Part shown: piece after piece, positions 4,495-51,448 of the stretch
How positions within the stretch are numbered: position 1 is the stretch's first letter
How the letters are laid out: each line of letters starts with the position of its first letter
Virus record (IMG/VR): IMGVR_UViG_3300027896_000058
Location: 1-52,608 of that record
Strand: one strand, 5' to 3'
Length of the DNA stretch: 52,608 nt
DNA from: a virus
Lineage: Duplodnaviria; Caudoviricetes
Notes under the pieces: generated by a model
Told to the model about the DNA's origin: nothing
Databases searched by the model: none
Seen by the model: only the letters and a program-made list of their open reading frames with translations
Made by a program: the position numbers and the translations under genes

Positions 4495-6207
4495 TTAAAA
4501 TATTGAGTCGGTCAAGTAGCTTTTGTCCGACGAGTCAACGTCATACATCTGCAACTCTTCATCAGATGTACCGGATTCCCTCATGTCTCGGGTCGTGAAC
4601 CTTGAACCCGGGATAGTTCCAAACCTCCTTCTTGCAACCTCAAGAACCATCGTTGCCGCGTCAGCCTTGTTCGGACTGGCGCCCGTCCTCATCCTCATCT
4701 CATGCTTCGTTTCAACGCAGATCTTCTGCTTTGAATTGTCCATCATCCTCGACACGAACTCGACAATGGTATCATCATCTATCCCGAAGATCTGGCCATG
4801 GATAGCAAACTTCCTCATCGAATACCAAAGCTCAGTGATCTTGTTCTGATAGATGTCACATCCCCTGCGCTCATCATTGTCCTCAACCTTGAAGTCTGAA
4901 GCCGCGCCGCCGCACTGGATTCGAAGGATCTGCGAGTTCCATTCGTGCTCAAGGATAGAGGCAAAGGCTGTCTGCGTGCCTGAGCAATCGAGGCCCAGGT
5001 TCTGAGGCGTGACATGGTACTTGCCGCAAAGGTCAATGATCTGCCTTGCGAGATCGTACTCAAGGGTAGTGCCAGCCGATACCTTGAGCCGGATGTTTAT
5101 CGCAGGGGAGAAGTAGATCCCAACGAGTCCAGACCGGAGGATCCCGACCTTCGCGTGCTGCATGATTGCCGCATCTCCACCGGTTGTGAAGGCCGGATCG
5201 ACTGCCGCTATGTCTACCTGCGCTCCTGACCAGACTGGTTTCTCCTGCATCTTGTGTTGGACTGCGAAGCTTTCGGAGAAGATTGATTGGGATACACCGT
5301 CAGGGCAAACGAATCCTATACGCTGACTCCAGAATCTCGGGCTATCTTCTCCTGGATCTTTTCGCATCGCATCAATTTGCGAAGTGTTAAGCATGAAGAA
5401 GAAACGTTCGGGGTCATCGACTCCAGGACTTTTTCTACCGTCAAAGAACAGGGTCTTGCCCTTTTCAGTTTCCCATTCTTCATCCTCTGTGGAAATAGAA
5501 TCCCATCCATGCTTGGGTTTACTCGCACGCCCAAGCGGGTCCATTCGAGAGACTGGGTTTCCCATGCCAAGGAATTTTGCTTCCTTACCTGTTGACAAGT
5601 TATCAAACGCTTCGACCGCGGCTTGCCGTGTGGCTTGCATCTCGTCAATGATAAGACAGTTGTAAGTGTTATGCACACCGACGATGTTTCCGACTGCTTC
5701 TTCAACGGTTCCTTTCTGAACAGCAATACCGAAGATTCCGTTACGACTGTTCTCATCGCCAAGGATGATGGCAAACTTGGTTGCGTAATGGATCCCGGGA
5801 AAGCCAGGAACCATACGATGATACTTCAAGATGTCATTCCAGATGCGGCGTTCCAGCATCTTTCCCGTAGTTGAGCAGATCGTGATAGAAGTCTCTGATG
5901 GCGCACTGAGCCAATGTACCAGAGCAATGACAGCCGCATCTGCGGACTTGCCCACGCTCGACGGCCCCCACCATGTCTGGAAATCGTAGGCACACCAAGC
6001 CTTTACCCGCCTCACCGTCCACTTGCTTATGATGTGACCCTTGCCCCCGTTCGGCATCTTCTCCGGCCAGAGTGCCTCGATCACGTTCATCATGTGCTTC
6101 CATTTGGGAGTCTCCTTGTCGGTGAGGTTATAGTTGCGGTAGCACCAAAGGCTTATCGTATGCGGGTGAGTGTCGTCAGGGAAGTTGGTTCCATGGGCCT
6201 TGATCAT
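4495..6207 (-). CDS. terL: terminase large subunit
   Basis: Walker A GPSSVGKS, Walker B CLIIDE, coupling motif GMGNP, RNase H-like AAVDPA and C-terminal SPNKADA. Confidence 0.9.
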   Translation of the reverse strand: MIKAHGTNFPDDTHPHTISLWCYRNYNLTDKETPKWKHMMNVIEALWPEKMPNGGKGHIISKWTVRRVKAWCAYDFQTWWGPSSVGKSADAAVIALVHWLSAPSETSITICSTTGKMLERRIWNDILKYHRMVPGFPGIHYATKFAIILGDENSRNGIFGIAVQKGTVEEAVGNIVGVHNTYNCLIIDEMQATRQAAVEAFDNLSTGKEAKFLGMGNPVSRMDPLGRASKPKHGWDSISTEDEEWETEKGKTLFFDGRKSPGVDDPERFFFMLNTSQIDAMRKDPGEDSPRFWSQRIGFVCPDGVSQSIFSESFAVQHKMQEKPVWSGAQVDIAAVDPAFTTGGDAAIMQHAKVGILRSGLVGIYFSPAINIRLKVSAGTTLEYDLARQIIDLCGKYHVTPQNLGLDCSGTQTAFASILEHEWNSQILRIQCGGAASDFKVEDNDERRGCDIYQNKITELWYSMRKFAIHGQIFGIDDDTIVEFVSRMMDNSKQKICVETKHEMRMRTGASPNKADAATMVLEVARRRFGTIPGSRFTTRDMRESGTSDEELQMYDVDSSDKSYLTDSIF

Positions 6208-8278: not shown

Positions 8279-8285
8279 GAAATCA

Positions 8286-8814: not shown

Positions 8815-9071
8815 AGTTGTACAAGATTATGCAGCATGAGAACAATGGTCACGACACATACGATTCTGCTGTTGTGATAGCTGAGTCGATGGAGGAAGCG
8901 TGCAACATGCACCCTGATGTAGTTGACTACGATGATCCGACAAGAGATCCGTGGAAGTCGTGGCCTCACTGCTGGGCATCAAGTCCTAAGCATGTGACCG
9001 TTCTTTATTTGGGCGAAGCAGATATAGGGCTCAAGAAAGGGTTCGTGCTGAAGTCGTTCAACGCAGGTTGA
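8811..9071 (+). CDS. hypothetical phage protein
   Basis: 86 aa, MKLYKI...YDSAVVIAES...SFNAG; GAGGTGAGG RBS. Confidence 0.75.
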   Translation: MKLYKIMQHENNGHDTYDSAVVIAESMEEACNMHPDVVDYDDPTRDPWKSWPHCWASSPKHVTVLYLGEADIGLKKGFVLKSFNAG

Positions 9072-9077
9072 AACAGA

Positions 9078-9110
9078 GGGAGATGGGCAAGTGCCTGTCT
9101 CCCTTTTTTT
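9078..9110 (+). terminator. intrinsic terminator
   Basis: GGGAGATGGGC-aagt-GCCTGTCTCCC followed by a T-run. Confidence 0.85.
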
Positions 9111-9211
9111 GTGATCATGCTACAGAACCTCTAAATGGCTCTAGGATCGATTATCTCTCTCGAACCATGTCTTCGTACAGGTCAGGGGGAGATTGTCAAT
9201 TCTAGGGGCAA

Positions 9212-9778: not shown

Positions 9779-9830
9779 GTCCGACAGAGTATCAAAACGA
9801 GCTTCCTTCCAGCAACTCGAAAAAAGAATG

Positions 9831-9860
9831 TTGACGGAAACGATGTCACGGATGTACAGT
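9831..9860 (+). promoter_or_regulatory. sigma70-like promoter
   Basis: TTGACG-18 nt-TACAGT at the start of the rightward early region. Confidence 0.55.
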
Positions 9861-9861
9861 A

Positions 9862-10365
9862 CCGACTCATGCAGTTCAGCGGGAATTGAAAACACCCGTT
9901 CAAGGACTTGAACTACGAAGCATGATAATTTCGATCTTGAACTTCGCAGGAGCGGTAAGCCGCAAGGCCCGCACAAATACTTGAATAAACGTTTTCACCT
10001 GCGAGGTTCACTTTTCAACCTCAGAACTACAGACTCAATTCTATTCGGACAAGCAGGCAACGTGTTGCAGAGTCACGACCTGGATAAGCTCAAGTGAGCG
10101 TGGTGCGAGGTAAGTCTCGGTAACAGTTTCCGCATGGGCTCGGGTTCACACCCACCTGGAGCCGGAAGGAAGACTGATAAAGCGATGGCCTTGATGAGAG
10201 GTGATACTCATCCCGAAAGTCAGTACGCTGAATAGAACGGTCGAAAGAAGAGTAATGCTCTGCTTTTCCGAAAGTCAGTATTACTCTTGCTTCTCGCAGG
10301 ATAGCGAGAGAAGAGAAGATCTGTATCTTGTGTATGTGCATCGAGAGGGTATTAACCCTCTCTCT
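9862..10365 (+). ncRNA. putative ~500-nt structured leader or ncRNA
   Basis: No credible ORF; about ten complementary helices including long-range pairs (see findings). Confidence 0.55.
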
Positions 10366-10399
10366 TTCCAATCTCTTCTTTCTTCATTCGTTCTCTTCC

Positions 10400-10434
10400 T
10401 GCATTCACTTCATATCCCAAATCTTTTGTTCTTT
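10400..10434 (+). repeat. 35-bp imperfect direct repeat, copy 2
   Basis: tgcattcacttcatatcccaaatcttttgttcttt; see 7934-7968. Confidence 0.85.
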
Positions 10435-10482
10435 TCTTTCTTTCAAACGCGGTAATAAACAACACAACAAGGAGACAGTGCC

Positions 10483-10644
10483 ATGCTACGAGACAATGCA
10501 GTAATAGACGAGTGCAAGATGCGGTGTAACGATTGCGTGTACGACGGATCCTGCGAGATCCCGGCCCAGCACATGCAGGAGATGCTGGATGAACGTACAA
10601 TCAGCATGAACTACATGATAGATACAGACACGAGGGAGTCCTGA
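10483..10644 (+). CDS. small Cys-containing protein (53 aa)
   Basis: AAGGAG RBS; MLRDNAVIDECKMRCNDCVYDGSCEIP... Confidence 0.55.
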   Translation: MLRDNAVIDECKMRCNDCVYDGSCEIPAQHMQEMLDERTISMNYMIDTDTRES

Positions 10645-10655
10645 CAAATCTTGCA

Positions 10656-10994
10656 TTGATTGTGTTGTCCATCTGGGTTGTAGAATCAACAGGTGGACAG
10701 CATCTTCAGTCTCAGTTCTCGGAAAGCATATCCGGTCACTTAATGATGAAGCCGATATTCATCAAAGACATGAACCGGATCCAGGATACCAAGTACACTT
10801 TAGAAGACCGATTCGATAAGCATAAAAGCTTTGAGATGGCTCAGAAGTATATGCGGTATTACCTTCCTAAACATTGGACGATTGAAGATGTGGCAATGCT
10901 CTGGCGATACGGGCCTGAAGGCAGGCGACACCAGAGCAAGAAGTGCAGTTATGTAAAAGCGGTGAAACGAGAATATAGGAGGTTGGTTAAGTGA
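10656..10994 (+). CDS. lysozyme-fold protein (SLT/i-type-like), start uncertain
   Basis: VES.G...G.L.MKP..IKD.NRI...YTLEDRFD..KS.EM...Y...W..GP.G...YV.AV resembles small phage lysozyme-like proteins. Confidence 0.55.
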   Translation: MIVLSIWVVESTGGQHLQSQFSESISGHLMMKPIFIKDMNRIQDTKYTLEDRFDKHKSFEMAQKYMRYYLPKHWTIEDVAMLWRYGPEGRRHQSKKCSYVKAVKREYRRLVK

Positions 10995-23247: not shown

Positions 23248-23634
23248 TCAAGGAAGGTTGTTCAGGTAATCTTCATACTGCTTCCAGTTGACTCCAAGCA
23301 GGGCGCATAGAAGTCTTTCGACACTGGTTGCAACGCAATGCTCGTTGACGTATGGAGCATTGGGATCGTCGCCCGGTTCGGCAGTTGCTCCAACAAGCTT
23401 CTTCTTCCTACGCTTCTCGAAGTCAAAGTCGAAGTCATCAACCATCTTCTGAGTGACTCCAGTATGTTCGCATATCAGAACCTCGATGAGTTCATGAACC
23501 GCAACGAGCTTTGCGTATCGAGGATCTTCCATCTCGGACACTTTGATGTGAAGGGTCTTGTTCTTGTAGTACCAATCTCCAACTGTCGGATACCTGTGAT
23601 CCTTATGCGGGATCGTTTCAATGATGATCTTCAT
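23248..23634 (-). CDS. small zincin-like protein (HExxE)
   Basis: RYPTVGDW...VAVHELIE...EPGDDPNAPY..EH; coupled to the ATP-grasp gene. Confidence 0.6.
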   Translation of the reverse strand: MKIIIETIPHKDHRYPTVGDWYYKNKTLHIKVSEMEDPRYAKLVAVHELIEVLICEHTGVTQKMVDDFDFDFEKRRKKKLVGATAEPGDDPNAPYVNEHCVATSVERLLCALLGVNWKQYEDYLNNLP

Positions 23635-25316
23635 ATAACTTCACTTACCTCTTCCGGTGTGGGTATTTTTCCGTCCCCGAACTTATACCCGTATTTCTTC
23701 TCGACCAGCGCGATCTCCTTAACCGCGGCAGGTATCGAGTCAAATCGAATGTCAATGTCGTGAGCTTCTATCTGATCCGCATTCTTCTTGCAGTGAGCAA
23801 TAGCTTCAATAATCGAGTTGCCAAGTCCAATGACTGCGCCGATCTGCCCGATCTCCTCGTCCTGAGGAAGACAGTGATACACTCCATCATACCGGCAGGA
23901 GAACTTGAGCTTCACGAAGTCGAGGATCTCCGGAGGGAAGCACACTGGTTGGTCGTTCTTGTCTCCCCACTTGGTGTTTATCATCACCTCTACACCGTAC
24001 TTGAACGGAGCATCAGGCAAGGCCATTATTCCCTGGGCGCCAAGGGTAAGGATCTTTCCCCAGTTTGTGTACTGAGCTTGATAGAGTTCGCTGGGCGGAG
24101 ATCCACATCGCATGCAGTCGTCGATGGAGTAGAACTTCTGATCCTGCTTTCCTCTCCTGAGTTCAAAAGAACAGAATCCACGACAACCAAAGGCAGATAG
24201 GACAGGCGAAATAGCCGCATTCGTTTTTGTAATGATGTCGGGTAACGCTTGGTAGGGAACAACTGCCGATATAAGACCGGCATCTTTAATCTCATACCCT
24301 TGAATCGCAATCTGAGGAAACATGCCATCGACTGAATATCCATCATAACCTATCTCCATGTCTGACTCGATTGGATCCTCGATAATGAACTCCTGTTCCA
24401 TCTGTGCCGGCCCGAGGTCTACGGCAATGCGCTGTAGAATCGGCTTTGTAATAATCCAGTTGCAGTGATGAAAGGTTTCGCAGTCTCCGCGTGTGACCGA
24501 TATCTTGATGAACTTGTTCTCGTTCTTGGGATCCTTGCAGTATACTTCAAGAGCATCCATGCCAACCACTATTTGATACGGGGCAACGGCCATGCCGATT
24601 GACTTCTTAAGCTCCTTGTTTTCCTTGCGGTACATCTCAAGGTGTTCTCCCATTCGATTACCCCAGACGAGTTTGCCGAGGGATTCAAGATGAACCTGTA
24701 GATCTCCGTGGTAGATGTCGGTGAAGATGAAGAGATCTACTTCTGGGATGATGGAGAACAGATCTTCCACACGCTCAACTCCTGGCAGGCCGTGACCGAC
24801 ATTGCGACACACTGACTTCGGGTATGCAGTCTTCCAAGGTTTGAAATGATATAGAACGCGGCCGAAGTACTTGGTCAGCTCGATGGCCCATGACACGAAC
24901 AGGCCATTGTCCACGATGCAGACGGTCATTGCCTTGGTGTCCGGATCCATGTTGATTGGGACCGGAACCTTGCTCTTTGGACTGACGTTGATGAGGCCAG
25001 TATCAGGGATTACGGTGATCGCGCGATCATCCCAATACTCGATTGCATGAGGGCTCTTGTCGGACGTGATCTCAAGTTGTATCCCTAGATGCTGCTGTAG
25101 CCATGCCTGAATGACCCTGTGCTGGACCATAAAGTCGGGGTTGATAGGAGATACCCTTGCGGTAAAGATCTTCACTTGTAGGCCCGCCTGGAGCCATCCC
25201 TTGACACGCTGAACCATGGCAGGGATGGGGTCACCTGTCGCGGTTCTATCGGCGTTCCACTTGTCGTTTAAAGTTGCCAGTGTCCCGTCGAAATCAACCG
25301 CGATGTATTCATTCAT
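23631..25316 (-). CDS. HAD phosphatase fused to a PurD-like ATP-grasp ligase
   Basis: N-terminal IAVDFDGTL, IFTAR, K, WDDRA (HAD motifs I-IV); then VDLFIF.D, VWG...LE..R, FIK, FIIEDPI...EIG.DG, RGF...E, ID.CMR.GSPP. Confidence 0.75.
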   Translation of the reverse strand: MNEYIAVDFDGTLATLNDKWNADRTATGDPIPAMVQRVKGWLQAGLQVKIFTARVSPINPDFMVQHRVIQAWLQQHLGIQLEITSDKSPHAIEYWDDRAITVIPDTGLINVSPKSKVPVPINMDPDTKAMTVCIVDNGLFVSWAIELTKYFGRVLYHFKPWKTAYPKSVCRNVGHGLPGVERVEDLFSIIPEVDLFIFTDIYHGDLQVHLESLGKLVWGNRMGEHLEMYRKENKELKKSIGMAVAPYQIVVGMDALEVYCKDPKNENKFIKISVTRGDCETFHHCNWIITKPILQRIAVDLGPAQMEQEFIIEDPIESDMEIGYDGYSVDGMFPQIAIQGYEIKDAGLISAVVPYQALPDIITKTNAAISPVLSAFGCRGFCSFELRRGKQDQKFYSIDDCMRCGSPPSELYQAQYTNWGKILTLGAQGIMALPDAPFKYGVEVMINTKWGDKNDQPVCFPPEILDFVKLKFSCRYDGVYHCLPQDEEIGQIGAVIGLGNSIIEAIAHCKKNADQIEAHDIDIRFDSIPAAVKEIALVEKKYGYKFGDGKIPTPEEVSEVI

Positions 25317-40929: not shown

Positions 40930-41805
40930 TTACAGATTCCCGTTATTTGAAGCTATCCACTGAACATTAATGTTCACATCGTTGATAGCGCCGCATGACT
41001 GCTTGATCGTGAACCCATTCACCGTTATCGCGGTAGGATACACGACAAGGATCGCGCCAAGCGCAGACACAGGATTGTACGACAAGACCACGTTAGGGAC
41101 CGTTGTAAAGGCCTTGGTGAAGGTTACAGTGCCTATCGTTTCATCGGCAGTACTAAGCGTAGGGTTACATCCTGCGACGATCCCAGAGGCAACCAGGTGG
41201 CTTGGTTGGACTGCTGGCCATACCTTGGCGCCGGCTGTCAGGCTCAATCCCGCGGCCATGTTGTTTGAGTCCACGTTCATCACGGTAATGCTGAGAGCGA
41301 TTGTGTCCACTGCCAGAACCTTGTAGAACCCTGCACCCTCTACGAAGATCGTCATGCCAGTCTCGCACCACATGTCAGCGCGCTGGAGGTAGAAGACGGA
41401 CGAAGATGTTCCGGCCGGAGCAACGAAGATCTCGGTTGTCAGGTCGTACAGGGCAAACGGAGAGACTGTCGCGCTATACGACAGATCCGGCTGAGCACAA
41501 GGCATCATGACTGTCCCGATAGGGATAGCAGATCCGGCTGCACCATTGGCGGATACCCCGTCATTGATGACGTAGATGTGAGTTGCGTCAGGTGTTCCTG
41601 TCACTCGGAAGAAGCCTGCGCCGGAGATCCAGATCCACATGCTGATCCGGTACTGACTTGACTGAAGGACTTCAACCGTAGTCTGTGATCCGATGTTTGG
41701 AATCACGAAGGTTTCAAGAAGCTGTTCAGTGAACGGATGAACGTGGTTAACCTGGACTGCAGACTGTTCGATGTTGAATACTGTAAGTGTCGGCGGCTGA
41801 ATCAT
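40930..41805 (-). CDS. putative tail/fibre protein without signal peptide
   Basis: Two GAGF-containing repeats; C-terminal VTFTKAFTTVPNVV...NGFTI...VQWIA (H-type lectin/gp53-like). Confidence 0.65.
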   Translation of the reverse strand: MIQPPTLTVFNIEQSAVQVNHVHPFTEQLLETFVIPNIGSQTTVEVLQSSQYRISMWIWISGAGFFRVTGTPDATHIYVINDGVSANGAAGSAIPIGTVMMPCAQPDLSYSATVSPFALYDLTTEIFVAPAGTSSSVFYLQRADMWCETGMTIFVEGAGFYKVLAVDTIALSITVMNVDSNNMAAGLSLTAGAKVWPAVQPSHLVASGIVAGCNPTLSTADETIGTVTFTKAFTTVPNVVLSYNPVSALGAILVVYPTAITVNGFTIKQSCGAINDVNINVQWIASNNGNL

Positions 41806-42576: not shown

Positions 42577-43341
42577 TCAGGATTCGATAAGTGTAATTTT
42601 CCACATGTCCGAGGCAAGACTTGGATTCGAGATGAACGAGTAAGGGAGATAGAAGAATCCCTTATCGCCCCATCCGGATCCCCATGAGTTTTGAACCTTG
42701 AACATCTTTCTCTGGTCGTTGTATCCGACTGCGAGAACCGCGTGTCCGCCCAGAAGCGACTCGTTCCTGGCAGGCATTGGCACGATCCCGGTACGGGCAA
42801 CGATGTCGGATTCAAAACTGTCATAGACAGAGAATCCAAAGACAAAGGGAAATCCAGAAGCAAGGCATGATCTCATGTCGTCAAGACTCTGGATCACTGA
42901 AGCGTATAGCATGACCTGATGTTTGGCCGCATGCGTGTAGCAAGACTTGAGCGGCTTCTTCGTGAACTTGGTCACGTCGTACTTCCACTCAGTTTCCGGA
43001 CAGACTCCAAGAGTTGCGACAGACTTCATCCCGTCACGGATCTGGGCGCCTGAGTCCTGCTTGACAGTGCCTTCCATTTCACGCTCGTTGTAATAGATGA
43101 ACAGGCGGGAAGGCGTAAACTTCTCTTTCGCGTCTTGCTTGATCTGTTCAAAGTAATGGCAGGAAGCAATGGCATTTGCCGTACAGGATCCGAGCTGACC
43201 TTGATTCAAGATCGGGACGATTGGGTTCGCCAGGTCGATCATCGAAGGAAGGTTCTCAGGTATGTGAACCGGCAGGAACTTGAAGTCACGGAAGTCGATG
43301 TGATCCTTATGCCAGCCGTATGATCGTTTGATCTTTTTCAT
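42577..43341 (-). CDS. papain-family (C1) cysteine peptidase
   Basis: NQGQLGSCTANA, SRLFIYYNER, GGHAVLAVGY, QNSWG..WGDKG. Confidence 0.92.
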   Translation of the reverse strand: MKKIKRSYGWHKDHIDFRDFKFLPVHIPENLPSMIDLANPIVPILNQGQLGSCTANAIASCHYFEQIKQDAKEKFTPSRLFIYYNEREMEGTVKQDSGAQIRDGMKSVATLGVCPETEWKYDVTKFTKKPLKSCYTHAAKHQVMLYASVIQSLDDMRSCLASGFPFVFGFSVYDSFESDIVARTGIVPMPARNESLLGGHAVLAVGYNDQRKMFKVQNSWGSGWGDKGFFYLPYSFISNPSLASDMWKITLIES

Positions 43342-43857: not shown

Positions 43858-44193
43858 CTATTCATGCCAGTTCCCTCCAAGTTCCGAAAGATGCCACACC
43901 TCATGTCCCAATGTGTATAGGTCAGGGTGTCGCGGCCCGTCAGGTTGCACCCAAATTGTTCTCGTCATCTCATCGTAAAAGCCACGCACCTGTTCGCGTT
44001 TGTGAGCCTCGTGCTTATCCCATTCCTTTTGAATCGTGCCACGATCTGCAACCTTAATCGTGAATGTATCCACCCCATACTCAGCCACGCCCTTATGCAT
44101 CACGCACCCGCAGCCTAGCTGTACGGCTACAACGACACAGAGGATTGCAACCCAGATTAGGCCAAATGCGCGGTAGGTGAGGAGGTGGTTCAT
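43858..44193 (-). CDS. putative lipoprotein mini-zincin
   Basis: Hydrophobic N-terminus ending LGCGC; VRGFY...IWV...TLGHEVWH (HExxH). Confidence 0.6.
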   Translation of the reverse strand: MNHLLTYRAFGLIWVAILCVVVAVQLGCGCVMHKGVAEYGVDTFTIKVADRGTIQKEWDKHEAHKREQVRGFYDEMTRTIWVQPDGPRHPDLYTLGHEVWHLSELGGNWHE

Positions 44194-46046
44194 CTCCCCT
44201 CCAACTTGAGCAATCGCGCTTTCAGTGCCTTACGCGCAATAATCTCATCACGCAATGCCGCTTGCAGGTAGCCGCACCAGCCGACGAGGTCAATGCCAGC
44301 GTTAGGGTCGCCATTGGCGCAAATCTCACGGGGTATCTGCGGGTCATCCAGCATGATGCCAACATGAGTCGCTTGGAACTTAGGCAATGCCGCTTTAGCC
44401 GTTGAGAGTTCATCGCGTTTGGCTTCGACCATCGCAGGTTCAAAACTATCAACGATCAACGCCTTTTCTGCCACGGGTTCCGATACACCCTTTTCATCCA
44501 TTGTTGCGAGTTCCATTAAGGCTTCATCGGTCGTGATGATAGCATCGGCCTTATCCATTCTCTGCAACACTTCCTCGTCACGCACAATCGGTTTACGTTT
44601 CCAGCGGTACACGGGAATCAGTGACAATTCGTCGGCGTAGTTCTTGACCACATCGACTTCAACAATATCCTTCGCGTCACGGTTGCAGGTGTAGGTTGTC
44701 CATGAGTCGGCAATGGGATCGGTCGCGGATGTTTGGACGATGGAGAGGATGTTTGTGCCGGTGGTGGTCCCGATTCCCACGTTGCGCCCAGAAGATATAC
44801 GCATTGCCTCTGCATTGTCGTTATTGTTTGTACCAGCAAAAAATGCCATGTACATAGGAACACTATTGCTGGCAACAGTGCCCTCTGAATACACTTTAAT
44901 TGATGCACTATTAATATACGAATAGCCATCATATCCATGAAATTCTACATTTCCTGCACGATCACCGGAGCTAACAGATACAGGAGCATCGGGATTTCCT
45001 CTAGCTTTTTTCAGGGTAATCACCGGAGGAGATGCGTCCGCAGAGAACTGACTGAATATCGCTGTTCTATCTGCAATGCCAGCAGTAGATATTACTCTTA
45101 ATGGTGTGTTTGTTCCTCCATAAATAACCATCACTGCGTTGGTCACATTGTTCGTTCCTATCCCAACTCGTCCAAGAAACGTATTCACAGCCCCCGCCAC
45201 CGTCTGCGTGATGGACGCGCACGAGATGTTAGTGGCCAAAATGTCACCGGCAACGTGGAGCTTGGCGGCGGGAGAGGTTGTGCCGATGCCGACCAATCCC
45301 CCGAAGTAACTCTTCGTCGTCCCGTCAATATACACCCCGTAATTATTTGACGCGCCAATAAGATTCGCCACGCGCAGGCCGTATTGATTTAGGCATGTTC
45401 CACCTCCCATATAGATATCTCTTGCGGCAAAATGCTCCACGTCTGTTATGGCTATCTTGGACCCTGCAACAGTTTCGGCTCCACTATCGAATCCCCTAAT
45501 ATGGGCCACTGTGCCCGAAGATGATGATCCGAACAAGGGATATGCAAATGCGCCCCGTATATACGGAGTACCTGTAAACTGACTGCGTATATCCATGGCT
45601 GTCGTAAAACCTTGAAAAGCGAATCCCCCGGTGCAATCAAAAGCCATACTACTTAAAATCGGTTGTATCTGAAAATTATTATATACACCCGCTCCGGTAG
45701 GCGCGGCAGGAGACACCGTTGTCCCTAATTGCATATCGTAACTGGCATTTACTACCGCTGTTTTGGTGCTAGCAATGTTCACAATATTACTGAACACGGA
45801 CACGCCCTTGAATACATTAGTCGAGGCGGCAGAGCTATTCGTAATCCCGCCGCTGACTTGGAGGGTTGTTGCGGTAATGTTGGATGCAATCACTTGGGCA
45901 ACAACACCAGATACGGAATTGATACTAGACCACTTCAGAGATGACGTACCTAAATTACCTTCGTTACTTGCTCTTGGGACAACATCTCTCGTTGCACCTG
46001 AACACAGCGAAACCAACAACATAAAATACACGATTAGCTTTTTCAT
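44190..46046 (-). CDS. tail fibre/spike with C-terminal S74-type intramolecular chaperone and N-terminal signal peptide
   Basis: MKKLIVYFMLLVSLCSG-ATR; VGIGTT repeats; WTTY..NR.AK...HVG...C-terminal coiled coil. Confidence 0.8.
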   Translation of the reverse strand: MKKLIVYFMLLVSLCSGATRDVVPRASNEGNLGTSSLKWSSINSVSGVVAQVIASNITATTLQVSGGITNSSAASTNVFKGVSVFSNIVNIASTKTAVVNASYDMQLGTTVSPAAPTGAGVYNNFQIQPILSSMAFDCTGGFAFQGFTTAMDIRSQFTGTPYIRGAFAYPLFGSSSSGTVAHIRGFDSGAETVAGSKIAITDVEHFAARDIYMGGGTCLNQYGLRVANLIGASNNYGVYIDGTTKSYFGGLVGIGTTSPAAKLHVAGDILATNISCASITQTVAGAVNTFLGRVGIGTNNVTNAVMVIYGGTNTPLRVISTAGIADRTAIFSQFSADASPPVITLKKARGNPDAPVSVSSGDRAGNVEFHGYDGYSYINSASIKVYSEGTVASNSVPMYMAFFAGTNNNDNAEAMRISSGRNVGIGTTTGTNILSIVQTSATDPIADSWTTYTCNRDAKDIVEVDVVKNYADELSLIPVYRWKRKPIVRDEEVLQRMDKADAIITTDEALMELATMDEKGVSEPVAEKALIVDSFEPAMVEAKRDELSTAKAALPKFQATHVGIMLDDPQIPREICANGDPNAGIDLVGWCGYLQAALRDEIIARKALKARLLKLEGR

Positions 46047-48013
46047 AACGGTTGCAATCCTCCAGTTGTGTTTGTCTCCCATAAAGCATCAGACTGAAAA
46101 ACACTTACAGGTTCCAGTCCTCCAGTTAAGTTAATATCCCAAGCTCCATTGGTCGTAACTTGAATGCTGATATAGCCGACAGCATTGGTTCTGGTGAATG
46201 CAGAAGTTCCCCCAGATACAACAAGATTGGTAATAATATTGTTCGTGCTCACTGGCTGAAGCGCGGTTGCAACCCCACCACTCACGCTGACCATCCAGTT
46301 TGAAATATTATTTATTGAGCTGGCAAACAATGCCTGAGTTGATGCAGACATCGTAAGTCCATTAGACCAAATAAGAGAGGACACATTTGTAACACTGAAT
46401 CCTCCAAGGCTCAAATCAGACAGCATTGGCAACGTGCCATCAACACGTAAATATCCAAGGTCAGCGGTGGACAACGTAATGTCCATCTGCGAGGGATAGT
46501 TTGTACCCACTCCTACAATGATATTGGTTGTAGCTCCACCGCCGGAAGATGATGCAAGTTTTGACCGTACCGCAAAATACCAAGGTACATTGGTGGAAAT
46601 ATTAGGCAATGGAATTACCCAAGATGAGATGACAGGAACCGCGCCTTTATCCACAAGATTGCTTGCCGCCGCATCGCCCCACTCAATGAATAAATGTGTG
46701 GAAGGCTCGTACCTGTAAACTTCTATCTTTGCGTACTTGGTGTTGTTTCCGCCCGTATTGTCGCAGACATAGTAATTAACTTTAGCACTGCCGCCACCAT
46801 ACACGGTAAACAACTGATTCGTCCAAATTGAACAAGCAAAGTAGCCGCCTATGGGTGCGCCATTTGTTCTAATAGCCTGCACTGGAGGGATGCCGTCACT
46901 GATCACATACGTTGCGTTGGTGGGCGTAATATCATTAGTGTACGAAAGAGTTTTATTGGAGGTAAAATACAGAGTCTTATTCGCGTTGATTACGGAGCGC
47001 AACTGAGCCAGTGTCACGGGCTGGTTGCTGATTGTGGCATCCGGAATGGTCATGGTGTAGAGACCGCCGTTGTTGGTGAAATAAGATGATGGAGCAAGTC
47101 CGCCAAGTTTTCCGGAATCTTTCACTGTTCCATTCGTTGCGTTGTCTACATAGGTAACTGATGCAAGTCCATTCGTGACTGTCTGATTTGTGAATGAGTT
47201 TGGATTGTTGGTTGGATAGAAATAGGTAAGTGTCCAACCCTTCAAAGTGTTCGTTGCTGAGTCCACGTACCCGATGGAAGCAAGACCGTTCGTGATCGCG
47301 GCTGTCACATAGTTCTTGAGAGTTACCCAATTCGTAACAGAAGACCAGAGTGTGTTCGTGGATGAATCAACATATGCCAGGGAAGCGAGTCCATTCGTTA
47401 TCGCAGACGTGACATAGTTCTTTCCGAGGATCCAGTTCGTTACCGTAGACCAGAGAGTATTCGTTGCGCCATCGACGTATAGGAGGCTTGCAAGGCCATT
47501 GGTGACGCTTGAATTAACCAACCCTTGTGTTGATATGGGGTAAAGGAGATTGTTCGTTATACCGTATCCTAAGAGGCTTGTAGGTGTGTTGGTGATGTTG
47601 TTCCAGTTGCGGAAGAAGTTCGTATCCACAACGAAAGCAGGAAAGCCTGTGTTCACGCTCATCACGAATGCGCCGTTGCTGTAGACAAAGCCCCAGAAGT
47701 TCGTGAGCTTGAGAACCGTGTTCGTGGATCCGATCTTGTTCGTGTTCGCTACAAGCCAAGCCCAGGCATTCGATCCAGAGTAATCATTCGTGGGAATCGA
47801 GATCCCCCAATTGTGCGGAGTAATCTTCTGAACGTATCCAGTAGACGAAGGAGCCAAGAGCGTGAGCTGGTAGATCGAGCCGGTAGACGAGGAACTATTC
47901 GAAGAGATGTTGCTGAGAACGTAGGGCTTGTAGTACGGCCAATCATTTCCCTGTGCTTTCGTTTCAGAAAACAATGCCAAGAAAATGATGAGCCGTACCA
48001 TCCATCGGAACAT
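46043..48013 (-). CDS. TN-rich fibre-like protein with signal peptide
   Basis: MFRWMVRLIIFLALFSETKA-QG; ~35-aa internal repeats; YLRVDGT..M and QPVTLAQL fibre-like motifs. Confidence 0.75.
   Translation of the reverse strand: MFRWMVRLIIFLALFSETKAQGNDWPYYKPYVLSNISSNSSSSTGSIYQLTLLAPSSTGYVQKITPHNWGISIPTNDYSGSNAWAWLVANTNKIGSTNTVLKLTNFWGFVYSNGAFVMSVNTGFPAFVVDTNFFRNWNNITNTPTSLLGYGITNNLLYPISTQGLVNSSVTNGLASLLYVDGATNTLWSTVTNWILGKNYVTSAITNGLASLAYVDSSTNTLWSSVTNWVTLKNYVTAAITNGLASIGYVDSATNTLKGWTLTYFYPTNNPNSFTNQTVTNGLASVTYVDNATNGTVKDSGKLGGLAPSSYFTNNGGLYTMTIPDATISNQPVTLAQLRSVINANKTLYFTSNKTLSYTNDITPTNATYVISDGIPPVQAIRTNGAPIGGYFACSIWTNQLFTVYGGGSAKVNYYVCDNTGGNNTKYAKIEVYRYEPSTHLFIEWGDAAASNLVDKGAVPVISSWVIPLPNISTNVPWYFAVRSKLASSSGGGATTNIIVGVGTNYPSQMDITLSTADLGYLRVDGTLPMLSDLSLGGFSVTNVSSLIWSNGLTMSASTQALFASSINNISNWMVSVSGGVATALQPVSTNNIITNLVVSGGTSAFTRTNAVGYISIQVTTNGAWDINLTGGLEPVSVFQSDALWETNTTGGLQPL
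47130..47520 (-). repeat. ~35-aa (105-bp) tandem coding repeat, about 3.5 copies
   Basis: (V/I)TNGLAS..YVD.(A/S)TNTLWS.VTNW...KNYVT repeated. Confidence 0.85.
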
Positions 48014-48507
48014 TACAACTCCTGTATTGCCACCACGTTTGTCTTCGTCGGGTTGGAGACAGCGTTGATCGGCTGCTGGAGCAGGAACGCAGGAACATCA
48101 ATCTCAGTTGCGGCCGCAAGATGAACTCCATTCGAGTACACCGCAATGTCATCACCGAAGGAAAGCCAGATCTCTGCCGCGCCGCCGTTGTAGATCCGGC
48201 ACATCCCGCGTGACGCATGAGGAACGAACAGATATGACAACCCGTTCGTGGAGTAAGTGCCGTTCAAGTGAGTCGGCATATTGGTTGATGTCCCGCCGGC
48301 CACTGTCACCATGTAGATCTTGTTGCTGGCATTCACCATTGCGCCCTGAGCGTATGCAACGTTCGTGGTCCACAACGGAGCAGACTGAAGATAGTTGAAC
48401 CTCGGGGACACGATCTTCTGGCTCGTAGGAGTCACGGAGAACTGTCTTGGTGCATCTGCGAAAGCCGATACTGCGATCATCATTACTGCAAGAAACATTT
48501 TCTTCAT
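48013..48507 (-). CDS. signal-peptide protein with CBM5/12-like motif
   Basis: MKKMFLAVMMIAVSAFA-DAP; WTTNVAYAQGAMV....IY.V..GG.S...P. Confidence 0.7.
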   Translation of the reverse strand: MKKMFLAVMMIAVSAFADAPRQFSVTPTSQKIVSPRFNYLQSAPLWTTNVAYAQGAMVNASNKIYMVTVAGGTSTNMPTHLNGTYSTNGLSYLFVPHASRGMCRIYNGGAAEIWLSFGDDIAVYSNGVHLAAATEIDVPAFLLQQPINAVSNPTKTNVVAIQEL

Positions 48508-48516
48508 TTGATCTCC

Positions 48517-48930
48517 TTACGGTGCGCGATAGATAATAACCCACGTTGATGTTGACGTTCCCATTGAACTGTAAATCATGTTCGTCGTTACCGAATTAGG
48601 AGCCGGTGAAGACAGAACATAAGAATCTCCGATGAACCTGGGCGTCTGATTCGTGGGAACTCCGGTAGAGTTCGTTGTGAAGTACGGAGCAAACATGTTC
48701 GTGATCGCATACGCAACATAGTTCGTGCTGGCCCTTGATGCAAGGTTCGTGGCAAGGACGATGTTGTTATCCATCCAAGTCACCAGATCCGACAGCCGGT
48801 TCGATGTTGAGAGCGTGATGTTGTAGAGCCCGTTTGTCGTGATTGAGATCTGATAATCAGGAACCTTCTGTTCCGCGTGCAGGTTCATTGCAAGGATTAT
48901 CGAGGCAAGGATCAGCGCAAGTTTCTTCAT
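48517..48930 (-). CDS. signal-peptide, TN-rich virion-region protein
   Basis: MKKLALILASIILAMNLHA-EQ; TPRFIGDSYV...W. Confidence 0.7.
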   Translation of the reverse strand: MKKLALILASIILAMNLHAEQKVPDYQISITTNGLYNITLSTSNRLSDLVTWMDNNIVLATNLASRASTNYVAYAITNMFAPYFTTNSTGVPTNQTPRFIGDSYVLSSPAPNSVTTNMIYSSMGTSTSTWVIIYRAP

Positions 48931-48938
48931 GGTTCCCC

Positions 48939-49217
48939 CTATACTGCCTTGACGTAGAACGCGCAGATCTGGGCCTGTGCATTCGGAGCCGAAGTAAAAG
49001 TGATTGTCTGGTTGAGGATCGTGTAATCAATCCCCTGTCTCTGCATGACTCCATTGATGAAGATCACTACAGTTGCGACTGCAATCGGAAGACTGCTTAA
49101 GGTGCAGACGTTTCCCCCTACGAGCAGGAGAGATTCCTGAACATACTGAGTGGAGGGGATGGAGTAGTTGTTGACCGTCGTCGTGGTTGTCGGTGGCTCG
49201 CAGCAGTTCTGACTCAT
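48939..49217 (-). CDS. small beta-rich virion protein, no signal peptide
   Basis: VIFINGVMQRQGIDYTI...TITFTSAP, a common phage structural repeat. Confidence 0.75.
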   Translation of the reverse strand: MSQNCCEPPTTTTTVNNYSIPSTQYVQESLLLVGGNVCTLSSLPIAVATVVIFINGVMQRQGIDYTILNQTITFTSAPNAQAQICAFYVKAV

Positions 49218-49297
49218 GTGTTCTCCCCCTCTTCCTTCCCCTTCGGGCCGGCAGTGCCAAGAATAACACCACCGGCCCAGGGTCAGGGAACGGCAAT

Positions 49298-49801
49298 TTA
49301 CCAGATCGCGATGTAGGACAGATTCGTCTGGACCGCTGCCCAGATGATATTGTTCGAGCTGATCGTCGGAAGTATCAGCGCAACAGTGGTGGCAACATTC
49401 GTTGCTGTGCCTGTGTAGCGCCAGCTTACCGAGATCGGGGAGCTTGTATGAACGCGGGCAAACGTGCCAGTGACAGTCGCGCCGGCAATGGCCGCAACAG
49501 TACCACGTTCAATCGCATAGACCGGATCACTGTTGAACTGAACAGTGTTAGCGACTCCATTGGAGCCCGGACCGATCTGGATCGCGCCGTTCGCAGTTGC
49601 CTGCGAGAGACCGTTGCTCAGACCGTTACCGATTACGATTGCACCAGTAGTCCCATTGGCGATGAACCCATCACCAACAAGCGTACCTTTCCACGTCGGC
49701 GCTGACGGCATCGAGGGATTCGTGCCGAGAGTACCTTCACCTGCGAGCGCGTAGCTTACTGCGAGAACAACCGCGAGAAGACCAACCATGATTTTTTTCA
49801 T
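49298..49801 (-). CDS. signal-peptide protein directly after the MCP (decoration/fibre-like)
   Basis: MKKIMVGLLAVVLAVSYALA-GE; GAIVIG and GAIQIG repeats. Confidence 0.7.
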   Translation of the reverse strand: MKKIMVGLLAVVLAVSYALAGEGTLGTNPSMPSAPTWKGTLVGDGFIANGTTGAIVIGNGLSNGLSQATANGAIQIGPGSNGVANTVQFNSDPVYAIERGTVAAIAGATVTGTFARVHTSSPISVSWRYTGTATNVATTVALILPTISSNNIIWAAVQTNLSYIAIW

Positions 49802-49891: not shown

Positions 49892-51448
49892 TCAGACTCT
49901 TGTACCACCGCAAGTTACTGTGGCAGGGCCACCGTATGCAGCGCAACGACCAGTTGCCACTCCGACAGGGAACACGATCTTGTAGATCGGTGCTGCGAAG
50001 TCCTCAGCGATCACGCCCACAACTGCCGTGGACGGGCTCGTTCCGGTCACTGTGACCATCTGGCCCACGTCACAAGGCAAGCAACTTGCCAGTGTGAGAT
50101 AGTACTCTGTCGCGTCTGCCGCAACGTCCGAGGCATTAACCTGGGCGCATGCGCTGACTGCTATCGGGCTGGATCCAGCTGTCCAACAGGTCGGGCATTC
50201 CGTGATCTCAAGCTCGTTGCACCGGCGATGCAGGATGCAGATTGCGTCGTTGGAATGGATCCAAGGTTCAGGCGCGATCCTGAAGCGACTGAAGAAGAAG
50301 CCTTTCTCCCTCAACAGATTGTCGCAACGCTCCTGTATGTTCAGCCAGTGGAATTCACCGAAGTTGTCCGCAGGGTCGAACTTGTAACCGGACGCCAGCG
50401 AGCTGGGGTTCGGGGTGGGTGTCAACGCCTTGTACACATCCTTCAGGAATACCGCGCTGATTTCGAAGGGAGCCGCGATGTAAGCCGGATTGATGTCGAT
50501 CGCATTGCCGATAGTCGTCGGGCTTTCCAGGAACGGCCACACGCGGGTAAGTGCTGTGCCGAGCGCATTCACGACAAGGCGGGGAGCCGCAGGGTCATGG
50601 ATGTGCGAGAAGCCACGGTACGTCAGCGCTGATCCGTATCCCTGAATGAGATACTCTTCCTGCAGGTATCGGTAGTCCTTGCGGATTTCCGTGTCCTTGG
50701 TGATGACTTCATTCGACGTTTCCATCGAGGTGATCAGACCGAAGATAGGTGAACCGGACTTCATCCCGAGGGCAGCGTCAGCGGCCTGACGGGAGAGATA
50801 CGAGTACACGCGGTCAAGGACGCTCTGGGTCAGGCGACCGATGTCACCAATGCCCGCGGCCGGGATCGCCACGGTGGACGAGAACATGCCCATCGTGAAG
50901 GTCTTGAGTCCGAGGTTCGTGGTGTTGCTGGGATCTGCCTGTGCATAGAACTTCTTGCAGAAGTTGAGATACAGTTCGCGCGTGATCTGTTCCCACTCAC
51001 CCAAGGTCACATTGGCAAGAGCCTGATAGATCAGGGCCAACTGCTTTTCGTACTGCCAGTCGAACATGATGTCGGTCAGGCAGATGTCGTTGGTACGACG
51101 GGTTGCCTGATAGATCGTGTAGGACTTCTGCTCGAAACCGTAGTTGATGACTTCGCTCTGATAAGCGCAAGCATCATAACCGGCATCGTCAGATCCGTTG
51201 GTCTTGGGCGCGCGGCTCTGCTGCATCTGCGACCATGAGGCGCCTGCGTCCTGGACGGCGATACCACCGTAGAAGGTTTCATTGTACTTGGTGTAGCCTT
51301 TGCCGTACTCGAAATTGCCACGCTCAATCAGGTCGCGATATACGGCTTTGTACATCTTGGACTTGTTGGCGATGATCGGGTTGATGTCAGGGACTGCGGC
51401 GATAAATGCGTTGTTGATTTGTTCGACATTACAAGGTGTGGATTCCAT
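49892..51448 (-). CDS. major capsid protein with Cys-rich C-terminal extension
   Basis: 518 aa after the scaffold; GGAGG RBS, own promoter and downstream hairpin; strongly biased codon usage. Confidence 0.8.
   Translation of the reverse strand: MESTPCNVEQINNAFIAAVPDINPIIANKSKMYKAVYRDLIERGNFEYGKGYTKYNETFYGGIAVQDAGASWSQMQQSRAPKTNGSDDAGYDACAYQSEVINYGFEQKSYTIYQATRRTNDICLTDIMFDWQYEKQLALIYQALANVTLGEWEQITRELYLNFCKKFYAQADPSNTTNLGLKTFTMGMFSSTVAIPAAGIGDIGRLTQSVLDRVYSYLSRQAADAALGMKSGSPIFGLITSMETSNEVITKDTEIRKDYRYLQEEYLIQGYGSALTYRGFSHIHDPAAPRLVVNALGTALTRVWPFLESPTTIGNAIDINPAYIAAPFEISAVFLKDVYKALTPTPNPSSLASGYKFDPADNFGEFHWLNIQERCDNLLREKGFFFSRFRIAPEPWIHSNDAICILHRRCNELEITECPTCWTAGSSPIAVSACAQVNASDVAADATEYYLTLASCLPCDVGQMVTVTGTSPSTAVVGVIAEDFAAPIYKIVFPVGVATGRCAAYGGPATVTCGGTRV

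What the first reader, a model, noticed from the sequence alone, without database searches (positions are those of the whole stretch)
44190..49801. Thr-Asn dipeptide enrichment confined to the signal-peptide proteins: candidate host-glycosylation motif
Seen (hand counts, approximate): TN occurs ~33 times in the 656-aa protein (versus ~10 NT), 7 times in the 137-aa, 4 in the 164-aa, 3 in the 167-aa and ~7 in the fibre; most also carry several SN. The Thr-rich neighbours without leaders have none (92 aa at 48939; 291 aa at 40930), and the 1211-aa nozzle has only ~5. The motif tracks export, not amino-acid composition. Inference: [T/S]-N is an acceptor for a host periplasmic glycosylation system, differing from the canonical N-x-S/T sequon, so the phage would coat its fibres in host glycan. 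From memory, not a search, exported proteins of Verrucomicrobiota/Kiritimatiellota show a similar TN bias, which suggests a PVC host.
Basis: partly seen in the sequence, partly recalled or inferred. Interest (0 to 1): 0.85.

Follow-up and report, generated by a model that had tools for sequence, protein, structure and literature searches.

The report
Thr-Asn signature shared by phage and host secretome
Five phage proteins with export leaders carry about three times more Thr-Asn pairs than chance, and the same very specific excess marks the exported proteins of one family of soil Verrucomicrobiota, the likely host, which points to an unknown envelope process that reads this pair.

Summary
The hand counts are right. 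By shuffling, TN is the most over-represented dipeptide in the five leader-bearing proteins at 44190-49801: 55 seen against 16.2 expected, z 10.3. Without the 656-aa protein it is 22 against 7.7. The other 47 ORFs show 33 against 37.4, and NT is never enriched. Collapsing the internal repeats leaves 24 against 6.2.

The excess follows export, not composition. It is T-N only; S-N is not enriched. A Verrucomicrobiota host is supported. The "TN bias of Verrucomicrobiota" is real but restricted to certain clades. In one family, leader proteins have TN O/E 2.14 (CI 1.89-2.33) and cytoplasmic ones 0.98. A sample across the phylum gives 0.74 and E. coli 0.70. That family holds the closest relative (57% identity) of a phage gene.

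Glycosylation is untested. In favour: extreme dipeptide specificity, site turnover between orthologues, and a conserved TN in a Pro-rich tail. Against: leaderless relatives are equally TN-rich, TN sits in conserved columns at strand starts, the excess appears on both predicted sides of membrane proteins, and no STT3 was found. I rate an envelope modification sequon at about 0.3-0.35.

The parts
46043..48013 (-). p656: leader-bearing fibre-like protein, TN 33 against 8.5 expected
   Evidence: 89 relatives at E<=1e-3 among 1.84 billion representatives. No Pfam or PHROG family.
47954..48013 (-). p656 N-terminal leader (about residues 1-20, ending T-K-A before Q)
   Evidence: Hydrophobicity rule and sequence read. 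The cleavage site is inferred, not predicted by a dedicated program.
47114..47521 (-). p656 repeat region (residues about 165-300): four units of about 24 to 39 residues, with 2 to 5 TN each
   Evidence: The same repeat idiom occurs in relatives. A low-confidence AF2 model puts TN at strand starts.
46469..47011 (-). p656 jelly-roll, carbohydrate-binding-module-like head domain (residues about 335-515), with TN at conserved columns 359, 365, 398 and 474
   Evidence: AF2 core pLDDT about 80-90. Foldseek matches the CocE C-terminal domain at E 1e-5, then CBM22, CBM6 and TNF-like folds. Column conservation. The Atlas structure rows agree.
44190..46082 (-). p630: leader-bearing tail-fibre protein, TN 8 against 3.0
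   Evidence: PHROG tail-fibre families 18345 and 9942. PDB 8ol4 at E 3e-10. Shuffle test. The leader starts at the internal Met 13.
48013..48507 (-). p164: small leader-bearing protein, TN 4 against 0.9, NT 0
   Evidence: No relative of similar length. Weak PHROG virion-protein matches.
48517..48930 (-). p137: small leader-bearing protein, TN 7 against 1.7, NT 0. It holds one unit that resembles the p656 repeat.
   Evidence: No relative of similar length.
49298..49801 (-). p167: small leader-bearing protein, TN 3 against 1.4 (not significant alone)
48939..49217 (-). p92: leaderless, Thr-rich neighbour without TN (an internal contrast)
   Evidence: Weak tail-fibre PHROG and DUF4183 matches.
42577..43341 (-). 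p254: papain-family peptidase, the gene that links the phage to the TN-biased Verrucomicrobiota family
   Evidence: Pfam Peptidase_C1 at E 1e-12. 57% identity over the full length to G001:C1:535089-535838, 55% to G005, and matches in 29 of 401 phylum genomes at E<=1e-10. The G001 copy lies among housekeeping-like genes.
4495..6207 (-). p570: large terminase (Walker A and B motifs), used for the host and prophage search
   Evidence: One distant relative in 401 Verrucomicrobiota genomes, inside a syntenic prophage.

Best explanation
SHOWN. The TN excess is a protein-level, compartment-specific and lineage-specific signature. The phage's five Sec-type-leader proteins carry it at O/E about 3.4. 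Exported and polytopic membrane proteins of one family of soil Verrucomicrobiota carry it at O/E about 2.1 and 1.7. Their cytoplasmic proteins, a phylum-wide sample and E. coli do not. The family is defined by G001, G004, G005 and G406, whose RpoB proteins are at least 90% identical; G407-G411 were added by the tool's own family grouping. The signal is the adjacent pair Thr-Asn and nothing else. That family also holds the closest relative found, within this one phylum, of a phage gene, so it is the probable host lineage.

In p656 the excess has two layers. One is a conserved fibre repeat. The other is a set of conserved columns in a jelly-roll head domain. In both, TN sits at predicted strand starts.

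INFERRED (my most likely mechanism, about 0.3-0.35 on its own). In this lineage TN is a two-residue recognition element for a process that acts on proteins routed to the envelope. A post-translational modification such as glycosylation of the Thr or the Asn is the leading candidate. Phage proteins that take the same route, or that were acquired from host secretome genes, therefore carry and keep it.
For: In the phage:
- TN is the top dipeptide in the five leader proteins (z 10.3) and absent from the rest of the phage.
- The excess survives collapsing the repeats.
- All 8 Thr-Asn codon pairs are used.

In the host family:
- Leader proteins have O/E 2.14 (1065 against 498.6, CI 1.89-2.33). Cytoplasmic proteins have 0.98.
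- In four family members not chosen for any TN gene, TN exceeds NT in 34 leader proteins against 5 (p 2e-6).
- The excess is the same in every length class from 100 to 1000 aa.
- Cytoplasmic proteins rich in T and N still give 1.05.

Specificity: of the 20 xN pairs only TN is raised (2.00; the rest lie between 0.78 and 1.08, with SN at 0.90). Of the 20 Tx pairs only TN is raised. Gapped T-x-N is 0.98.

Spread: it is not one domain family. Of the 10 TN-richest small leader proteins, 6 have no Pfam family and the others are MlaD, Sel1 (two) and TPR.

MlaD orthologues in the family carry 5-7 TN where 1.3-1.9 are expected. Four sites are conserved, one of them in a Pro-rich C-terminal tail. Other sites are gained or lost between proteins that are 64-73% identical. 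Orthologues outside the family carry 0-1.

Controls: phylum sample leader proteins 0.74; E. coli 0.70.

Host link: p254 is 57% identical to a chromosomal gene of G001. There is a syntenic distant prophage in G359. TN-repeat genes were found in 15 loci of a scan over 185,579 species. Eleven are titled Verrucomicrobia, and a twelfth (G005) is Verrucomicrobial by RpoB.
Against: Against the modification step:
- 18 leaderless relatives of p656 have the same excess (O/E 3.15; 15 of 18 with z>=3) as 52 with leaders (3.41).
- In the head domain the excess sits in conserved columns (28-34 of 31-39 sequences at four sites). The scattered remainder is close to chance. This fits a structural role.
- TN lies at predicted strand starts next to hydrophobic residues.
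- With a crude topology rule, TN exceeds NT in predicted cytoplasmic loops (26 against 11) as well as outer loops (47 against 16) of polytopic proteins.
- No STT3 in 0 of 5 genomes.
- PMT_2 counts do not separate biased from unbiased genomes.
- No glycosyltransferase was seen among the 20 phage proteins scanned with Pfam. The remaining ORFs were not scanned.

Against the host link:
- 57% identity is modest.
- p254 was not compared across other phyla.
- The p656 head domain was not found in 401 phylum genomes.
- The G359 prophage has no leader-bearing or TN-rich genes.

Method limits:
- Leaders and topology come from my own hydrophobicity rules on my own ORF calls.
- Samples are 40-400 kb per genome.
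- Non-PVC controls are E. coli (27 leader proteins) plus 13 leader proteins from three large plasmids.
Confidence: 0.4

Rival explanations
1. Structural idiom. TN is a capping or strand-initiating pair, with Thr and Asn side chains closing the start of a strand or helix. It is built into fibre repeats and beta-rich extracellular folds. The phage proteins are TN-rich because of their folds, and no chemistry happens at TN.
For: TN is fixed in the repeat and in conserved head-domain columns. It lies at predicted strand starts. Hydrophobic residues are enriched at -1, and G, W or S just after the Asn. Leaderless relatives are equally TN-rich. 87 of the 91 proteins in the family set, the query included, have z of at least 1.5.
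Against: A structural preference should not be confined to one bacterial family, nor absent from exported proteins of other Verrucomicrobiota and of E. coli. Ser-Asn, chemically close, is not enriched (0.90). The excess also occurs in helical proteins (MlaD C-terminal region, Sel1, TPR) and in a Pro-rich tail. Sites turn over between close orthologues.
Confidence: 0.28
2. Inheritance by gene exchange. The leader-bearing fibre genes were taken from, or are shared with, host secretome genes. They simply carry the host's signature (leader plus TN) with no selection in the phage. This explains the phage side only and is compatible with any root cause in the host.
For: Leader-bearing TN-repeat genes sit as single loci in Verrucomicrobiota chromosomes. 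The phage also carries a host-like peptidase gene. Leaders occur in 52 of 90 relatives of p656.
Against: p137 and p164 have no relative of similar length in 5.8 billion clusters. The p656 head domain was not found in 401 phylum genomes. The phage's O/E (about 3.4) is higher than the host family's (about 2.1).
Confidence: 0.15
3. A translation- or targeting-linked signal. Thr-Asn, or its codons, affects elongation or recognition for proteins made at the membrane. Secreted and polytopic proteins would then carry it on both sides of the membrane.
For: Polytopic proteins are enriched (O/E 1.70) in both predicted inner and outer loops. TN is spread evenly along the proteins.
Against: All Thr and Asn codons are used within TN, and the codon skew is the same in cytoplasmic proteins. 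I know of no such mechanism (recalled, not searched). My topology rule is crude.
Confidence: 0.07
4. An artefact of composition, internal repeats or my classification rules.
For: p656 does contain repeats with several TN each. Ten proteins carry 321 of the 528 excess TN in the first five genomes.
Against: The excess survives collapsing the repeats, dropping p656, dropping proteins above 1000 aa and stratifying by T*N content. NT is a built-in control and is never raised. Sign tests across proteins are significant.
Confidence: 0.03

Closest known systems
General O-glycosylation system of Bacteroidota, motif D-(S/T)-(A/I/L/V/M/T)
   Same: A short sequon read on many exported proteins of one bacterial lineage. 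The motif is as stated in the abstract of PMC8550257, seen in the listing. That the system is phylum-wide is recalled.
   Different: The motif here is T-N: no Asp before it, Ser is not used, and Asn follows instead of an aliphatic residue. The Bacteroidota motif occurs once in the five phage proteins. No glycan, enzyme or glycopeptide is known for TN. The lineage is a family of Verrucomicrobiota.
PglB/STT3 N-glycosylation, sequon (D/E-x-)N-x-S/T
   Same: An Asn in a short sequon, modified in the periplasm (recalled knowledge).
   Different: Only 10 of 55 TN are followed by x-S/T. N-x-T is 1.09 in host-family leader proteins. STT3 was found in 0 of 5 genomes, while the control rang in 4 archaea.
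Trimeric phage tail fibres with repeat shafts and a jelly-roll or CBM-like receptor-binding head
   Same: p630 matches tail-fibre PHROGs. p656 has a repeat shaft and a jelly-roll head. The genes lie in the structural block after the capsid-sized gene.
   Different: These carry canonical Sec-type leaders, which tail fibres assembled in the cytoplasm normally lack (recalled). p656 matches no Pfam or PHROG family. Trimer formation was not tested.
Compartment-specific composition rules, such as the positive-inside rule and secretome amino-acid biases
   Same: A sequence statistic that separates exported from cytoplasmic proteins.
   Different: It is one ordered dipeptide, not a composition. It is restricted to one lineage and its phage. 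Nothing like it turned up in five literature searches.

Membership tests
PglB/STT3-type N-glycosylation substrate | Acceptor Asn lies in N-x-S/T (x not Pro) | tested here: not met
   10 of 55 TN in the five proteins are followed by x-S/T. N-x-T O/E is 1.09 in host-family leader proteins.
PglB/STT3-type N-glycosylation substrate | Host encodes an STT3/PglB oligosaccharyltransferase | tested here: not met
   PF02516 found in 0 of 5 genomes (G001-G005). The control rang in 4 of 14 genomes, all archaea. The MAGs may be incomplete.
Bacteroidota-type general O-glycosylation substrate | Motif D-(S/T)-(A/I/L/V/M/T) on exported proteins | tested here: not met
   One occurrence in the five proteins.
Any protein glycosylation substrate | Glycan attached at the motif | not testable with these tools
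   Needs mass spectrometry or glycan staining.
Sec-dependent signal peptide | Basic n-region, hydrophobic h-region, small residues at -3 and -1 | tested here: met
   The best 12-residue Kyte-Doolittle mean is 2.4-3.2 within the first 30 residues in all five. The leaders end in L-H-A, A-F-A, A-L-A, T-K-A and C-S-G (read). No dedicated predictor was available.
Phage tail fibre | Sequence match to tail-fibre families | tested here: met
   p630: phrog_18345 at 1e-8 and phrog_9942 at 5e-8. p656: no family, so its fibre nature rests on the repeats, the head fold and its position.
Phage tail fibre | Homotrimer attached to the virion | not tested
   No complex prediction was run. There are no virion data.
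   The head domain is a jelly roll, not a beta-helix. The repeat region's model is low-confidence (pLDDT 52), with strand-strand-strand units. No coordinates were available for burial.

The most novel reading that the evidence does not exclude
Thr-Asn is the sequon of a so far undescribed general envelope-protein modification system (glycosylation or another adduct) in one family of soil Verrucomicrobiota. The phage sends its fibre and accessory proteins through the Sec pathway so that the host system decorates them. TN density in leader proteins would then predict the hosts of such phages from sequence alone.
Probability: 0.3. Interest if true: 0.9.

Novelty: new variant of a known kind. Interest (0 to 1): 0.72.

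Why it matters
If TN is a sequon, this would be a new general protein-modification system in an abundant, barely cultured soil lineage, found from sequence statistics alone. It would come with hundreds of predicted substrates. It would also be a phage that routes fibre-like proteins through the host's export and modification path.

Even if the cause is structural, three things stand:
- An ordered dipeptide separates the secretome of one bacterial family from its cytoplasm and from its relatives.
- A phage shares that signature, which gives a new kind of host-prediction signal.
- The question can be tested directly by open-search mass spectrometry on TN peptides.

Tried and rejected
Relatives of the phage or of p656:
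- IMG/VR scans with p656, with the capsid-sized p518 and with alignment A3 confirmed no relative.
- tblastn of p518 against 50,697 phage records found no match.
- The metagenome scan with A3 gave one 1.9-kb contig, which was of no use.
- So I could not ask whether related phages share the leader and TN block.

Family searches:
- Pfam and PHROG scans of 20 phage proteins named few of them.
- The PDB sequence search with p656 found nothing significant.
- The Atlas gave only weak leads, with scores 0.80-0.85.
- p137 and p164 have no relative of similar length. Longer and shorter forms were not searched.

Host evidence:
- The p656 head-domain profile A1 matched 0 of 401 phylum genomes and 0 of 5.
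- Phage DNA against G001-G005 matched only the peptidase gene plus one 38-base stretch at 87% identity, which I take as chance. I saw nothing that looks like a CRISPR spacer match.
- No tRNA genes.

A rejected conclusion. I first read G005 as an independent Acidobacteriota case, from its NCBI title. Its RpoB is 91% identical to that of G001, and the tool places both in one family. It is therefore no second phylum. As a result my intended cross-phylum comparison of p254 only repeated the Verrucomicrobiota sample.

Candidate enzymes. PMT_2 is abundant (5-53 matches per genome), but it is equally present in 3 of 5 unbiased genomes. I reject it as a discriminator.

Controls. Three large plasmids gave only 13 leader proteins, too few to use.

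Not run: complex prediction, because its score would not show where TN lies; the look-up of sequencing runs and read laying; the RNA tools. Supplementary files of papers were not needed. No paper was opened beyond the search listings and the abstract starts printed there.
Full report
WHAT THE WINDOW IS. The window is a whole IMG/VR virus record of 52,608 bases, rated 100% complete by CheckV. It is a very divergent tailed phage. Its genes include:
- a large terminase with Walker A and B motifs (p570, 4495-6207);
- a portal-sized protein (p774, 590-2914);
- a capsid-sized protein (p518, 49892-51448);
- a 2621-aa giant protein;
- ParB-like and DnaB-sized replication genes.

Few of these match Pfam or PHROGs. 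There are no tRNA genes. The finding covers six consecutive minus-strand genes directly after p518: p167, p92, p137, p164, p656 and p630.

THE OBSERVATION. Every hand count is right or within one. Shuffling each protein gives these results:
- p656: TN 33 against 8.5 expected
- p137: 7 against 1.7
- p164: 4 against 0.9
- p630: 8 against 3.0
- p167: 3 against 1.4 (not significant alone)

NT is never above expectation. Pooled over the mature parts of the five proteins, TN is the first of 400 dipeptides (55 against 16.2, z 10.3). It stays first without p656 (22 against 7.7, z 5.7). The other 47 ORFs show 33 against 37.4.

p656 holds four repeat units with 2 to 5 TN each. Keeping one unit leaves 24 against 6.2. 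Removing the whole repeat region leaves 21 against 5.6.

By a hydrophobicity rule, N-terminal leaders occur only in these five proteins and in two tiny doubtful ORFs. Each leader has a basic start, a hydrophobic core and small residues at -3 and -1.

All eight Thr-Asn codon pairs are used, so the signal lies in the protein and not in a DNA word.

Two details need correcting. The leaderless p774 also has 6 against 1.8 (p 0.007, uncorrected). SN is not significantly raised (pooled 21 against 14.2).

THE PROTEINS.
- p630 matches tail-fibre PHROGs and PDB 8ol4 (E 3e-10).
- p656 has no family, but it has 89 relatives at E<=1e-3 among 1.84 billion representatives. They match its N-terminal part, its repeat region or its C-terminal domain.
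- An AF2 model of residues 300-656 is confident only for about 335-515 (pLDDT 80-90). That part is an all-beta domain that Foldseek places with jelly rolls: the CocE C-terminal domain at E 1e-5, then CBM22, CBM6 and TNF-like folds. The Atlas structure rows agree.
- The repeat region's model is poor (pLDDT 52). It shows strand-strand-strand units.
- In both models TN tends to lie at or just before a strand start.
- p137 and p164 have no relative of similar length.

TN WITHIN THE p656 FAMILY. Of the 91 proteins in the set (the query and 90 relatives), 87 have a TN z-score of at least 1.5, and NT is depleted. Because these hits were partly found through the TN-rich repeat, I also looked at 39 segments of the head domain alone. 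They hold TN 352 against 112 expected and NT 75 against 113. The excess sits in conserved columns. p656 positions 359, 365, 398 and 474 carry TN in 28-34 of 31-39 sequences. The scattered remainder is near chance.

The excess does not depend on a leader. The 52 relatives with a leader have O/E 3.41. The 18 complete relatives without one have 3.15, and 15 of those 18 have z of at least 3. This is the strongest point against a strictly periplasmic cause.

THE HOST-SIDE TEST. A pattern scan of one genome from each of 185,579 species, using an alignment of TN-repeat relatives, confirmed 15 loci. Eleven lie in MAGs titled Verrucomicrobia. Each genome holds one such locus.

From five of these genomes I took 140-400 kb away from that locus (except in G005). 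I called ORFs of at least 100 aa and sorted them by my hydrophobicity rules. TN O/E in leader proteins against cytoplasmic proteins was:
- G001: 1.66 against 0.97
- G004: 2.43 against 1.12
- G002: 1.44 against 1.09
- G003: 1.92 against 1.25
- G005: 2.02 against 0.82
- E. coli K-12, first 250 kb: 0.70 against 0.79

These genomes had been chosen for a TN-repeat gene, so I added two unselected sets.
- Four members of G001's family, none of which matches the repeat profile (0 of 6 family members matched). Leader proteins give 2.25 (239 against 106), with TN above NT in 34 proteins against 5 (p 2e-6). Cytoplasmic proteins give 0.98 and polytopic ones 1.70.
- Five genomes drawn across the phylum. 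Leader proteins give 0.74 (36 against 48.5) and cytoplasmic ones 0.96.

Pooled with bootstrap intervals:
- family leader proteins: 2.14 (1.89-2.33)
- family cytoplasmic proteins: 0.98 (0.85-1.12)
- phylum-sample leader proteins: 0.74 (0.45-1.02)
- E. coli leader proteins: 0.70 (0.42-1.00)

The excess is the same in all length classes. It is absent from cytoplasmic proteins rich in T and N (1.05).

A CORRECTION I HAD TO MAKE. G005 is titled Candidatus Sulfopaludibacter, an acidobacterial name as far as I recall. Its RpoB is 91% identical to that of G001, and the tool puts both in one family. There is therefore no evidence from a second phylum. RpoB identities to G001 are 67-73% for the phylum sample and 52% for E. 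coli. This confirms that the 401-genome sample belongs to one phylum.

HOW SPECIFIC THE SIGNAL IS. I used 196 family leader proteins, taking mature parts and only proteins of at most 1000 aa.
- TN is the only raised xN pair (2.00). The others lie between 0.78 and 1.08, with SN at 0.90.
- TN is the only raised Tx pair.
- T-x-N is 0.98 and N-x-T is 1.09.
- Around TN, Lys and Arg are depleted from -5 to +5. F, V, A and L are favoured at -1, and G, W and S just after the Asn.
- TN is spread evenly along the proteins.
- There is no sharp longer motif.

The excess is not tied to one fold. Of the 10 TN-richest small leader proteins, 6 have no Pfam family and 4 are MlaD, Sel1 (two) or TPR.

MlaD orthologues make the point concrete. 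The six family members are 64-73% identical to G001's protein and carry 5-7 TN where 1.3-1.9 are expected. Four sites are conserved, one of them in a Pro-rich C-terminal tail. Other sites appear and disappear between close relatives. Four orthologues outside the family carry 0-1 TN.

THE HOST.
- The phage's papain-family peptidase p254 (42577-43341) is 57% identical over its full length to a gene of the same length in G001. It is 55% identical to one in G005. It has matches at E<=1e-10 in 29 of 401 phylum genomes.
- The G001 copy lies between housekeeping-like genes and not in a prophage.
- The terminase has one distant relative in 401 phylum genomes (26% identity). It sits in a prophage of G359 that also holds relatives of p774, p1211 and p350 and a giant protein, but no leader-bearing or TN-rich genes.

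Together with the shared signature, this makes a Verrucomicrobiota host, probably in or near the G001 family, likely. I put it at about 0.65-0.7. No cross-phylum comparison of p254 was possible, and I saw nothing like a CRISPR spacer match in five genomes.

MECHANISM. Shown: a protein-level, export-linked, clade-restricted excess of the ordered pair Thr-Asn, shared by a phage and its probable host lineage.

Inferred: the cause. I favour a short recognition element for an envelope process, most simply a modification of Thr or Asn, at about 0.3-0.35. My reasons:
- the restriction to one dipeptide, with Ser not accepted;
- the restriction to one clade;
- its presence across unrelated folds and in a disordered Pro-rich tail;
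- site turnover at constant density.

The structural reading, at about 0.28, explains conserved columns, strand-start positions and the leaderless relatives. It does not explain the clade restriction or the exclusion of Ser.

Simple inheritance of host secretome genes may explain part of the phage side. A crude topology test found the excess on both predicted sides of polytopic proteins (26 against 11 inside, 47 against 16 outside). If confirmed, that would favour neither of the two main readings and remains unexplained.

Candidate enzymes were not identified. STT3 is absent from 5 of 5 genomes. PMT_2-type transferases are numerous but do not discriminate.

WHAT IS KNOWN. The closest known system is the general O-glycosylation of Bacteroidota, with its three-residue motif (abstract of PMC8550257, seen in the listing). 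The TN pair fits neither that motif (one occurrence) nor N-x-S/T (10 of 55).

Five full-text searches returned nothing on a Thr-Asn bias, on Verrucomicrobiota protein glycosylation motifs or on tail fibres with signal peptides. I read only the listings. These searches cover open-access papers and bioRxiv only.

VERDICT.

Noticed in passing
window 44190-49801: Five of six consecutive genes in the structural block carry canonical Sec-type leaders, including a tail-fibre homologue (p630) and a fibre-like protein (p656). After the leader, p630 shares a conserved N-terminal motif with the relatives P0010 and P0035. How exported proteins would join a particle assembled in the cytoplasm is unexplained.
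   Followed up: partly
window 42577-43341: A papain-family (Peptidase_C1) gene in the phage is 57% identical over its full length to a chromosomal gene of a Verrucomicrobiae MAG (G001:C1:535089-535838). At the DNA level it is 66% identical over 468 bases.
   Followed up: yes
L003 / G005 (DATJNM010000050.1): The MAG titled Candidatus Sulfopaludibacter has an RpoB 91% identical to that of the Verrucomicrobiae MAG G001 and shares its family in the tool's taxonomy. The title and the content disagree.
   Followed up: yes
G359:C25:114800-147200 (L083-L086): A distant syntenic prophage in a Verrucomicrobiota genome. It holds terminase, portal-sized, p1211-like and p350-like genes and a 2130-aa giant protein, but no leader-bearing or TN-rich genes.
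   Followed up: partly
G001-G005, G406-G410 samples: Polytopic membrane proteins of the TN-biased genomes also show TN well above NT (O/E 1.70 in the family set). By a crude positive-inside rule this holds in both predicted cytoplasmic and outer loops.
   Followed up: partly
G003 whole genome: 53 matches to the PMT_2 (GT-C glycosyltransferase) family in one 4.2-Mb genome, many of them in clusters on contigs C17, C10, C4 and C2.
   Followed up: no
window 40930-41805: p291 carries an H-type lectin domain (Pfam E 7e-7) at its C-terminus. It has neither a leader nor any TN, although it is 10% Thr.
   Followed up: no
window 23631-25316: p561 begins with a HAD-phosphatase-like DxDGT motif. It has weak matches to a PNKP phosphatase domain and to a PHROG named phosphoheptose isomerase.
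   Followed up: no
window 590-2914: The leaderless portal-sized p774 has TN 6 against 1.8 expected (p 0.007, uncorrected). It is the only protein outside the leader block with a nominal excess.
   Followed up: no
window 7000-10700: The genes change strand here and the GC skew flips sign near 8 kb. Only short, doubtful ORFs lie in this stretch. It may be an origin or regulatory region.
   Followed up: no
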